This document shows positions 7,778 through 8,593 of a stretch of 64,000 nucleotides of DNA, piece by piece. The notes under the pieces are model-generated. The model ran no database searches and was not told where the DNA came from. It worked only from the letters and a program-made list of their open reading frames with translations. Source of the DNA: Shigella phage vB_SboM_Phaginator; the sequence record OL615012; one strand, given 5' to 3'. Position 1 is the stretch's first letter. The number at the start of each line of letters is the position of its first letter. Both the position numbers and the translations under genes were made by a program.

Positions 7778-8065
7778 TTATAGAAGATTTTTTGCAATAA
7801 TTTTAAGCTGAGCTACTGAAATATGCTTGGCTTTAAACAAAGCAGTTTCTTCAGCAGGAGAGATAACGATTGTAGCACCATCCTTTTTAGCAGACCACCC
7901 ATCACCTAGGTAAACAGTACCTTTGATTTCTTCGCCATCAACCAGACTAATCATTGGTTTACCTTCTCGTCCTTTATTTGCTTTAATAACTTCAGAAGTA
8001 AGAGTAGCTTCGGTAATAGTAGAAACCGGGGTAGTTGTAGAAGTAAATTCTTTGAAAGTTTTCAT
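7778..8065 (-). CDS. ipI: internal protein I (IPI), capsid-targeted injected protein
   Basis: 95 aa as T4 IPI; N-terminus MKTFKEF with I-T-E cleavage site giving a 76-aa mature form. Confidence 0.7.
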   Translation of the reverse strand: MKTFKEFTSTTTPVSTITEATLTSEVIKANKGREGKPMISLVDGEEIKGTVYLGDGWSAKKDGATIVISPAEETALFKAKHISVAQLKIIAKNLL

Positions 8066-8095
8066 TTTATTTTCCTAATTAATTTTGATGAGATA

Positions 8096-8125
8096 ATAGT
8101 ATCACTACCTCATCAACGTGTAAAC
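8096..8125 (-). promoter_or_regulatory. putative T4-type early promoter (GTTTACA-N17-TACTAT)
   Basis: Minus-strand -35 GTTTACA (8119-8125), 17-bp spacer, -10 TACTAT (8096-8101), upstream of ipI. Confidence 0.35.
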
Positions 8126-8137
8126 AACTTTGTGAAA

Positions 8138-8593
8138 TTATTTTAAATCATCTGCCCAATCAAGTTTAAGAGGCTCTTTATATTCACGGTCAAGTACAAC
8201 CGGAATTTGTACATCACCGCTAAATGATAAGGGCCCAACATTATAAGACAATGTTATATGCGGTGTGTAATCATCAAAATCATGTGTAGCACCTAGTGCC
8301 CGCGCATACATGTGTCGACAGCGCAGATATTCAGAATCTAGCACAAGTACAAGAGTCGATCCATCTTGTGTTTTCCATACTTCTAAATGTCCAGAAGAAG
8401 CTACTTCAAAACTTCCGCTTGATGGAACATATGGAACATTTACTCTTGAATAACATATGGTCGAATGAATTTTTTCTCTAGGAACTGGATTAGGAACACG
8501 TAAAGAGCGCTGGAGTTCTTCCAGCGCATCAAGTGTTAATTCTGAAAACTTAGCTGCTACATAAAGACCCGTTGAAAAGTCTTTAAATTCCAT
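8138..8593 (-). CDS. 57B: 57B protein, Acb1-like anti-CBASS 2H phosphodiesterase
   Basis: 151 aa; two H-x-T/S motifs (HSTI, HITL) typical of 2H phosphoesterases; position between ipI and 57A as in T4. Confidence 0.7.

What the first reader, a model, noticed from the sequence alone, without database searches (positions are those of the whole stretch)
7778..8593. Adjacent known counter-defence genes ipI and 57B (Acb1-like) with an early-promoter-like element
The 95-aa IPI-like protein has a capsid-targeting leader and predicted cleavage after ITE. Immediately upstream in transcription order is a 151-aa protein with two H-x-T/S motifs (HSTI, HITL) characteristic of 2H phosphodiesterases, matching T4 57B, which has been reported as the anti-CBASS nuclease Acb1. 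Together with the NADAR protein and the Alt enzymes, the window carries several counter-defence functions.
Basis: established knowledge. Interest (0 to 1): 0.4.

Follow-up and report, generated by a model that had tools for sequence, protein, structure and literature searches.

The report
T4 ipI and acb1 counter-defence genes
This stretch of a T4-like phage carries two well-studied anti-immunity genes, the injected nuclease inhibitor IPI and the anti-CBASS nuclease Acb1 (gene 57B), in their usual T4 arrangement, so the finding is correct but ordinary.

Summary
The observation and the interpretation both hold. Window 8138-8593 (-) encodes a 151-aa protein identical to residues 2-152 of T4 gp57B, the experimentally characterised Acb1. 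It matches Pfam Acb1 at 2.6e-60 and keeps the HxT/HxT tetrad (H43-S-T45, H112-I-T114). Window 7778-8065 (-) encodes a 95-aa protein 93/95 identical to T4 IPI (Pfam IPI_T4, 5.4e-52). Its only L/I-x-E protease site is ITE17-19, and the solved mature IPI* (PDB 2JUB, 76 aa) begins at A20.

The "early-promoter-like element" is real and there are two. GTTTACA-N17-TACTAT lies upstream of ipI and GTTTACA-N17-TATAGT lies downstream. Each is embedded in a stable hairpin. This is the promoter-early stem-loop (PeSL) architecture already described for T4-type phages. The two elements bracket ipI as a replaceable cassette: the close relative slur07 has a different 77-aa internal protein between the same elements.

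The only local peculiarity is a ~135-bp recombinant patch covering the ipI 3' end and the downstream element. It is 21-60% diverged from T4 and 99.4% identical to phage phiD1. It causes two substitutions in IPI (A85V, H87Q).

The side remarks also hold: two Alt-like ADP-ribosyltransferases and a gp30.3/AdfN NADAR homologue are present. Everything here is already known, so interest is low.

The parts
8138..8593 (-). Gene 57B = acb1. It encodes a 151-aa 2H-phosphoesterase that degrades CBASS cyclic oligonucleotides. The catalytic tetrad is H43, T45, H112, T114 (T4 numbering H44, T46, H113, T115).
   Evidence: 151/151 identical to T4 NP_049750 residues 2-152. Pfam PF23474 Acb1 2.6e-60. PDB 7T26 Acb1 4.1e-62. 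Motif positions. Function from PMC9117128.
7778..8065 (-). Gene ipI. It encodes the 95-aa precursor of internal protein I, the capsid-packaged and injected inhibitor of the type IV restriction enzyme GmrSD.
   Evidence: 93/95 identical to T4 NP_049749, with A85V and H87Q. Pfam PF11634 IPI_T4 5.4e-52 over residues 20-95. PDB 2JUB 5.9e-43.
8009..8065 (-). Codons 1-19 of ipI (MKTFKEFTSTTTPVSTITE). This is the capsid-targeting propeptide, ending in the gp21 protease site I-T-E.
   Evidence: 100% identical to T4. ITE is the only [LI]-x-E in the protein. The 2JUB mature chain starts at A20. The L/I-x-E rule and the CTS concept come from PMC9026906. The gp21 protease gene is present in the window at 37060-37698 (PF03420, 1.5e-111).
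8085..8125 (-). Composite early promoter plus stem-loop (PeSL-type) between 57B and ipI. The -35 TTTACA is at 8124-8119 and the -10 TACTAT at 8101-8096. The 14-bp hairpin spans 8085-8116.
   Evidence: Promoter scan. Pattern count 6 against 0.77 expected. Fold energy -15.5 kcal/mol, z -3.47. The homologous site in phage SA21RB is annotated as both early promoter and terminator. The consensus TTTACW-N17-TAYWAT comes from PMC4122927.
7735..7775 (-). Second composite early promoter plus stem-loop, between ipI and the trna.4 homologue. The -35 TTTACA is at 7774-7769 and the -10 TATAGT at 7751-7746. The stem is 12 bp perfect by repeat search and 13 bp in the fold, spanning 7735-7766.
   Evidence: (I7, 100% complementary). 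Fold energy -17.4 kcal/mol, z -4.00.
7710..7844 (-). Recombinant patch covering the last 67 nt of ipI and the downstream intergenic element. It comes from a different T-even lineage than the flanking sequence.
   Evidence: Compared with T4, there are 14/67 differences in the ipI 3' end and 41/68 in the spacer, against at most 2.7% in the adjoining ipI 5' part and trna.4. A 171-bp query spanning the patch (7690-7860) is 99.4% identical to Yersinia phage phiD1 and Shigella phage ESh33 over 169 bases.
8593..8835 (-). Gene 57A (tail-fibre chaperone). Its TAA stop overlaps the 57B ATG (TAATG), so 57B is co-transcribed with it and probably translationally coupled to it.
   Evidence: Pfam PF17594 GP57 1.7e-49. 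Sequence read. In T4 the junction is TGATG with an extra upstream ATG, which explains 152 aa in T4 against 151 aa here.
9574..9597 (-). T4 middle-promoter-like site upstream of gene 1: MotA box TGCTT, 13 nt, TATAAT. It is the likely source of 1-57A-57B transcripts.
   Evidence: Sequence read directly. The equivalent site is annotated in SA21RB. Function is inferred.
9191..9198 (-). Late-promoter motif TATAAATA inside gene 1, upstream of 57A-57B-ipI. It is a possible source of the late ipI expression needed for packaging.
   Evidence: The equivalent site is annotated in SA21RB. Function is inferred.
7524..7709 (-). The trna.4 homologue, a 61-aa predicted membrane protein of unknown function. 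It is the gene served by the second promoter.
   Evidence: phrog_1692 6e-35 over the full length. The alignment to T4 trna.4 shows the start at ATG 7709, not at the TTG at 7766 listed.

Best explanation
The window comes from a mosaic Tequatrovirus (T4-like phage). The flagged stretch is the T4 57B-ipI segment with both genes intact.

57B encodes Acb1, a metal-independent 2H phosphoesterase. [quoted passage not shown]

ipI encodes the IPI precursor. Its first 19 residues target it to the prohead core. The prohead protease gp21 cuts after ITE19. The 76-aa IPI* is packaged at about 360 copies per capsid, injected with the DNA, and blocks the GmrSD type IV nuclease that would otherwise cut glucosyl-hmC DNA.

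57B is co-transcribed with genes 1 and 57A. ipI sits as a self-contained cassette between two composite early-promoter/stem-loop (PeSL-type) elements. These give it immediate-early expression. Their hairpin can form only in read-through RNA from upstream, because the -10 hexamer lies in the loop and 3' arm. They also supply short homologies at which different internal-protein genes are swapped between phages.

Shown here: the gene identities, the motifs, the cleavage-site position, the promoter and hairpin sequences, the cassette replacement in slur07, and the recombinant patch. Taken from the literature on the identical or near-identical T4 proteins: the enzymatic and inhibitory activities. 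Inferred: the transcription pattern, terminator activity, and the role of the elements in recombination.
For: Acb1: 100% identity to T4 gp57B. Pfam Acb1 2.6e-60. PDB 7T26 4.1e-62. H43/T45/H112/T114 are present. T4 57B was shown to be Acb1 with an H44/T46/H113/T115 tetrad (PMC9117128).

IPI: 93/95 identity to T4. Pfam IPI_T4 5.4e-52. 2JUB starts at residue 20. gp21 cuts after L/I-x-E and the propeptides act as capsid-targeting sequences (PMC9026906). Ip1 inhibits GmrSD (PMC12373910; PMC4437046). The gp21 and gp22 genes are present in the window.

Promoter/hairpin elements. PeSL description and T4/PST consensus. Cassette replacement in slur07 between the same elements. Recombinant patch.

Synteny with T4 (trna.4-ipI-57B-57A-1-3-2-4-53-5).
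Against: No finding contradicts the gene identities.

The IPI here carries A85V and H87Q in the C-terminal helix, and the effect on GmrSD binding is untested.

The hairpins are not followed by a U-tract and the terminator scan did not call them. Terminator activity is therefore doubtful.

The second -10 hexamer (TATAGT) departs from the published TAYWAT at one position.

No TATAAATA late promoter lies directly upstream of ipI. The nearest is inside gene 1, so the route to late expression is inferred.

Whether this phage glucosylates hmC, which is the condition under which IPI matters, cannot be seen in this window.
Confidence: 0.94

Rival explanations
1. The 57B product is an RNA ligase or RNA-repair enzyme (LigT-like 2',5' ligase or cyclic phosphodiesterase) rather than an anti-CBASS nuclease, as RefSeq labels it.
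For: RefSeq annotates T4 57B and its homologues as 'RNA ligase'. The protein belongs to the 2H phosphoesterase superfamily, which includes LigT (PMC9117128).
Against: The identical T4 protein was identified by activity-guided fractionation as the 3'3'-cGAMP-degrading activity. Its structure was solved with substrate bound. T4 lacking acb1 was tested on CBASS hosts. The dedicated Pfam family Acb1 matches end to end. The 'RNA ligase' label is an automatic name that predates or ignores this work.
Confidence: 0.03
2. The intergenic elements are simply ordinary T4 early promoters. The hairpins are incidental or serve only RNA stability, with no role as terminators or as recombination linkers.
For: Neither hairpin is followed by a U-tract and the terminator scan missed them. 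Promoter matches alone explain the conservation of the hexamers. Minicircle formation was demonstrated only for RB49/phi1, not for T4-type elements.
Against: Both hairpins fold much better than shuffles, with z -3.5 and -4.0. The T4 counterpart of the 57B-ipI hairpin also folds well (z -3.56), while the ipI-trna.4 one is weaker (z -2.76, 2 of 200 shuffles as stable). The stem is maintained although its sequence differs completely between the two alleles of the ipI-trna.4 spacer. slur07 has a different IP gene exactly between the two elements. The divergent patch ends at the element.
Confidence: 0.25
3. The IPI allele in this phage (V85, Q87) is functionally different from T4 IPI. It may have lost activity or be retargeted to another GmrSD variant.
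For: Both substitutions fall in the C-terminal helix within a horizontally acquired patch. Internal proteins are highly specific for their cognate GmrSD variants (PMC12373910).
Against: Of 14 nucleotide differences in the patch only 2 change the protein, which indicates purifying selection. The exact protein recurs in 6 other phage records, and alleles down to about 86% identity are common. The substitutions are conservative or surface-type. Nothing here tests binding.
Confidence: 0.08

Closest known systems
Bacteriophage T4 Acb1 (gene 57B, NP_049750.1)
   Same: The amino-acid sequence is identical over all 151 residues, including the HxT/HxT tetrad and the C-terminal lid. The genomic position is the same, between 57A and ipI.
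   Different: It is one residue shorter at the N-terminus, because the T4 ATGATG start is TAATG here. There are 10 silent nucleotide differences.
Bacteriophage T4 internal protein I (ipI, NP_049749.1; mature IPI*, PDB 2JUB)
   Same: Both are 95 aa. The 19-residue propeptide and ITE cleavage site are identical. The mature part is 74/76 identical. The locus is the same.
   Different: A85V and H87Q (mature numbering A66V, H68Q). These arrived with a ~135-bp patch shared with phiD1, ESh33 and SG1.
PeSL (promoter-early stem-loop) regulatory cassettes of T4-type phages (Arbiol et al. 2010, PMC2839356; Comeau et al. 2014, PMC4122927)
   Same: Each is a sigma-70-type early promoter fused to a stem-loop in the short spacer between a stop codon and the next Shine-Dalgarno sequence. 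The elements flank a small non-essential gene that is replaced in close relatives. The promoter fits the T4/PST consensus TTTACW-N17-TAYWAT.
   Different: The stems are AT-rich rather than the GGGG...CCCC type of RB49. They lack a U-tract. The stem overlaps the -10 hexamer. Neither terminator activity nor minicircle formation has been tested for these copies.
Erwinia phage FBB1 Acb1 (PDB 7T26/7T27)
   Same: The same family and fold template. The alignment covers residues 8-148 at E 4.1e-62 with both HxT motifs aligned.
   Different: An orthologue from a different phage genus, with many substitutions outside the active site.

Membership tests
Acb1 (anti-CBASS 2H phosphoesterase, Pfam PF23474) | Full-length match to the family profile above the curated cut-off | tested here: met
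   202.7 bits against a cut-off of 27. Residues 8-149 match profile positions 1-144 of 144.
Acb1 (anti-CBASS 2H phosphoesterase, Pfam PF23474) | Two HxT/S motifs forming the catalytic tetrad (T4 H44, T46, H113, T115) | tested here: met
   H43-S-T45 and H112-I-T114. They align with the HTT and HIT motifs of 7T26. The tetrad is defined in PMC9117128.
Acb1 (anti-CBASS 2H phosphoesterase, Pfam PF23474) | 2H phosphoesterase fold with a C-terminal lid over the ligand | tested here: met
   Met by sequence only. The protein aligns at E 4.1e-62 to the solved Acb1 chain 7T26 and is identical to T4 Acb1 through the C-terminus. No structure was predicted here.
Acb1 (anti-CBASS 2H phosphoesterase, Pfam PF23474) | [quoted passage not shown] | not testable with these tools
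   Demonstrated for the identical T4 protein in PMC9117128.
IPI (T4 internal protein I, Pfam PF11634) | Match of the mature domain to the IPI_T4 profile | tested here: met
   174.1 bits against a cut-off of 25. Residues 20-95 match profile positions 1-76 of 76.
IPI (T4 internal protein I, Pfam PF11634) | N-terminal capsid-targeting propeptide ending in a gp21 site (L/I-x-E), giving a 76-aa mature protein | tested here: met
   MKTFKEF...ITE19 is identical to T4. It is the only [LI]-x-E in the protein. The 2JUB chain begins at A20. The rule comes from PMC9026906.
IPI (T4 internal protein I, Pfam PF11634) | Cognate prohead protease and scaffold encoded by the same phage | tested here: met
   The gp21 homologue lies at 37060-37698 (PF03420, 1.5e-111). 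The gp22 homologue lies at 37729-38538 (PF25623, 1.5e-89).
IPI (T4 internal protein I, Pfam PF11634) | Packaging into the head, injection, and inhibition of GmrSD | not testable with these tools
   Known for T4 IPI (PMC4437046; PMC12373910). The allele here differs at 2 of 76 mature residues.
PeSL (promoter-early stem-loop) elements | Strong sigma-70-like early promoter, T4/PST consensus TTTACW-N17-TAYWAT | tested here: met
   Element 1, TTTACA-17-TACTAT, fits fully. Element 2, TTTACA-17-TATAGT, fits 11 of 12 positions (consensus).
PeSL (promoter-early stem-loop) elements | Stable stem-loop fused to the promoter in an intergenic spacer | tested here: met
   -15.5 kcal/mol (z -3.47) and -17.4 kcal/mol (z -4.00), with 0 of 200 shuffles as stable. 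The second stem is a perfect 12-bp inverted repeat.
PeSL (promoter-early stem-loop) elements | Flanking of variable, non-essential ORFs that differ between close relatives | tested here: met
   slur07 is 96.7% identical over 25 kb but has an unrelated 77-aa IP gene between the same two elements. IPI is found in 285 phage records, whereas the surrounding 1.6 kb is found in 718.
PeSL (promoter-early stem-loop) elements | Terminator activity of the stem-loop and recombination or minicircle formation between copies | not testable with these tools
   There is no U-tract and no call by the terminator scan. The SA21RB record annotates terminators at the same sites. Experimental evidence exists only for RB49/phi1.

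The most novel reading that the evidence does not exclude
The ~135-bp patch (7710-7844) is a fossil of exchange at the downstream promoter/stem-loop element, with one breakpoint inside ipI. The resulting V85/Q87 C-terminal helix alters which GmrSD variants this IPI* can neutralise. On this reading, sub-genic shuffling at PeSL borders tunes anti-restriction specificity rather than only swapping whole IP genes.
Probability: 0.07. Interest if true: 0.35.

Novelty: already known. Interest (0 to 1): 0.08.

Why it matters
The result matters little beyond correct annotation. Both proteins are textbook or recently characterised T4 counter-defence factors and are present here essentially unchanged. Two practical points follow. 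First, many database records still call 57B a 'hypothetical protein' or 'RNA ligase', although it is Acb1. Second, the ipI cassette bounded by promoter/stem-loop elements is a clean local illustration of how T-even phages exchange injected anti-restriction proteins.

Tried and rejected
1. I tried to read Bair et al. 2007 (PMC1868451), Repoila et al. 1994 (PMC395341) and Miller et al. 2003 (PMC150520) for the original IPI, IP-locus and promoter data. None is held. I relied instead on reviews and later papers that cite them.

2. I looked for the 'NADAR protein' with Pfam and PHROGs on about 25 ORFs and found no NADAR family hit. A Pfam search at E up to 10 on the gp30.3 homologue also gave no NADAR match. 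NCBIfam gave nothing for gp30.3, Acb1 or IPI. The PDB sequence search gave nothing useful. A tblastn with an E. coli YbiA sequence recalled from memory gave a weak hit (E 0.002) inside the gp30.3 ORF. The literature then confirmed that T4 gp30.3 is the NADAR enzyme AdfN.

3. I considered that the 80-aa TTG-initiated ORF at 7524-7766 might overlap the second promoter. I rejected this because the T4 alignment and phrog_1692 show the real gene is the 61-aa ATG form starting at 7709.

4. I considered a dedicated late promoter for ipI. There is no TATAAATA between 57B and ipI.

5. The large protein-database searches, structure prediction and metagenome scans were not used. Identity to characterised T4 proteins made them unnecessary.

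Full report
**What is there.** The flagged interval runs exactly from the stop codon of one minus-strand ORF to the start codon of the next. The ORF at 7778-8065 encodes 95 aa and the ORF at 8138-8593 encodes 151 aa (sequence). On the minus strand the gene order is gene 1 (dNMP kinase, 8835-9548), 57A (8593-8835), the 151-aa gene, the 95-aa gene, then a small membrane-protein gene (7524-7709). This is the T4 order 1-57A-57B-ipI-trna.4 (T4 annotation).

The window as a whole is a mosaic Tequatrovirus. The best matches over 25 kb are 96-97% identical (slur07, JLBYU24, RB18 and others), and no record is identical. Over the local 1.6 kb the best records are about 96% identical.

**The 151-aa gene is acb1 (57B).**
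- The protein is 151/151 identical to residues 2-152 of T4 gp57B.
- The one-residue difference in length arises because the T4 junction GAATGATGG is GAATAATGG here. The 57A stop is therefore TAA, and 57B starts at the second T4 ATG, overlapping the stop as TAATG.
- Pfam's dedicated Acb1 family matches end to end (2.6e-60).
- The solved Acb1 of Erwinia phage FBB1 (7T26) aligns at 4.1e-62.
These are T4 H44/T46/H113/T115.
- Hobbs et al. [quoted passage not shown] They described this tetrad as the acid-base catalytic site of a metal-independent 2H phosphoesterase. They showed that H44A/H113A is inactive and tested T4 lacking acb1 on CBASS hosts.
- Because the protein here is identical, its function carries over directly.
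- In the phage collection, 1470 records encode a homologue and 498 of them are at least 99% identical. Many records still call it 'hypothetical protein', and RefSeq calls it 'RNA ligase'. That label reflects only the superfamily.

**The 95-aa gene is ipI.**
- The protein is 93/95 identical to T4 IPI.
- Pfam IPI_T4 matches residues 20-95 to the full 76-position profile (5.4e-52).
- The NMR structure of mature IPI* (2JUB, 76 aa) aligns to residues 20-95, beginning at A20.
- The prohead protease gp21 cuts after L/I-x-E, and the N-terminal propeptides of the internal proteins are capsid-targeting sequences (PMC9026906). ITE17-19 is the only such motif in the protein.
- The cognate protease (37060-37698) and scaffold (37729-38538) genes are in the window.
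- IPI* is present at about 360 copies per head and is injected with the DNA. It neutralises GmrSD, a type IV enzyme that cuts glucosyl-hmC DNA. [quoted passage not shown]

**The promoter-like element, and a second one.**
- Between 57B and ipI the minus strand reads GTTTACA-N17-TACTAT (8125-8096).
- Directly after the ipI stop codon it reads GTTTACA-N17-TATAGT (7775-7746).
- The T4 early-promoter pattern occurs six times in the window against 0.77 expected. All six are on the strand of the early genes.
- Each promoter is embedded in a hairpin. The first spans 8085-8116 (14 bp, -15.5 kcal/mol, z -3.47). The second spans 7735-7766 (12-13 bp, -17.4 kcal/mol, z -4.00).
- In both, the -10 hexamer lies in the loop and 3' arm. 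An RNA that starts at the promoter therefore lacks the 5' arm, and only read-through RNA from upstream can fold.
- This is the composite 'promoter-early stem-loop' (PeSL) architecture of T4-type phages (PMC2839356; PMC4122927). The consensus given there for the T4/PST pair is TTTACW-N17-TAYWAT. Those authors link PeSLs to the polymorphism of the IP locus noted in 1994.
- The SA21RB GenBank record annotates an early promoter and an overlapping terminator at both homologous positions.
- I could not show terminator function. There is no U-tract and the simple scan did not call the hairpins.

**ipI as a cassette.** Phage slur07 is 96.7% identical to the window over 25 kb. Between the same two elements it carries an unrelated 77-aa internal protein with the canonical MKTYQEFIAE leader. 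IPI homologues occur in 285 phage records, while the surrounding 1.6 kb is found in 718.

Within the window, a ~135-bp patch (7710-7844) is sharply diverged from T4 and SA21RB. There are 14 differences in the last 67 nt of ipI and about 60% divergence in the spacer. By contrast there is 1.4% divergence in the rest of ipI and 2.2% in trna.4. A 171-bp query spanning the patch (7690-7860) is 99.4% identical to phiD1 and ESh33. Only two of the 14 coding differences change the protein (A85V, H87Q), which indicates purifying selection. The exact protein recurs in six records, for example Salmonella phage SG1. This is ordinary T-even mosaicism.

**Expression (inferred).** 57B has no promoter of its own and overlaps the 57A stop. 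A MotA-type middle promoter lies upstream of gene 1 (TGCTT at 9597-9593, 13 nt, TATAAT at 9579-9574). A TATAAATA late motif lies inside gene 1 at 9191-9198. Both match sites annotated in SA21RB. ipI has its own early promoter. It probably also receives read-through late transcripts, which would supply protein for prohead assembly.

Two tandem Alt-like ADP-ribosyltransferase genes are present at 55680-57737 and 57741-59834. The 'NADAR protein' is the gp30.3 homologue at 62658-63122 (PF08010, 1.8e-69). No Pfam NADAR match was obtained. However, T4 gp30.3 is the NADAR ADP-ribosylglycohydrolase AdfN that counters DarTG1 (PMC11257639).

**Verdict.** The finding is a correct recognition of known genes in their known context. 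Novelty: already known. Interest is low.

Noticed in passing
window 3289-3855 (-) and 3973-4446 (-): Two further genes carry capsid-targeting-type leaders (MKTYAEFLTEA..., MKSYAQFLNEA...). Both match phrog_2280 and have no Pfam family. They are probably additional injected internal proteins at the second IP locus. By analogy with Ip2 and Ip3, they are candidate inhibitors of other GmrSD variants.
   Followed up: partly
window 62658-63122 (-): A gp30.3 homologue (PF08010, 1.8e-69). T4 gp30.3 is AdfN, a NADAR ADP-ribosylglycohydrolase that counters DarTG1 (PMC11257639). Pfam's NADAR family itself does not match this protein.
   Followed up: partly
window 55680-57737 (-) and 57741-59834 (-): Two tandem Alt-like ADP-ribosyltransferase paralogues of 685 and 697 aa (PF03496 at 5.8e-20 and 1.6e-37). 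An early-promoter match lies at 55651-55680, abutting the downstream (3') end of the 55680-57737 gene.
   Followed up: no
window 4837-6242 (-): A tRNA cluster of nine genes (Arg, Asn, Tyr, Met, Thr, Ser, Gly, Leu, Gln) is interrupted by a GIY-YIG homing-endonuclease gene (5348-5998, segB-like). The tRNA set differs from the eight in T4, which has Ile and Pro and lacks Asn, Tyr and Met.
   Followed up: no
L003 (slur07) 7098-7331 (-): A close relative carries a different 77-aa internal protein (MKTYQEFIAETADVKVEF...) at the ipI position, between the same promoter/stem-loop elements.
   Followed up: partly
window 43103-44521 (-): A 472-aa protein with PKD/Ig-like domains lies at the position where I expected the capsid decoration gene hoc. 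I recall T4 Hoc as being about 376 aa (from memory, not checked), so this one may have an extra Ig-like domain.
   Followed up: no
window 2364-2393, 2755-2784, 3092-3121 (-): Three more exact matches to the T4 early-promoter pattern lie in the spacers between small genes of unknown function. This suggests a run of PeSL-type single-gene cassettes in this hyperplastic region.
   Followed up: no
Public records of T4 57B homologues (e.g. NC_000866 73952-74410): RefSeq names the Acb1 gene 'RNA ligase' and many GenBank records call it 'hypothetical protein'. The annotation lags behind the 2022 characterisation.
   Followed up: yes
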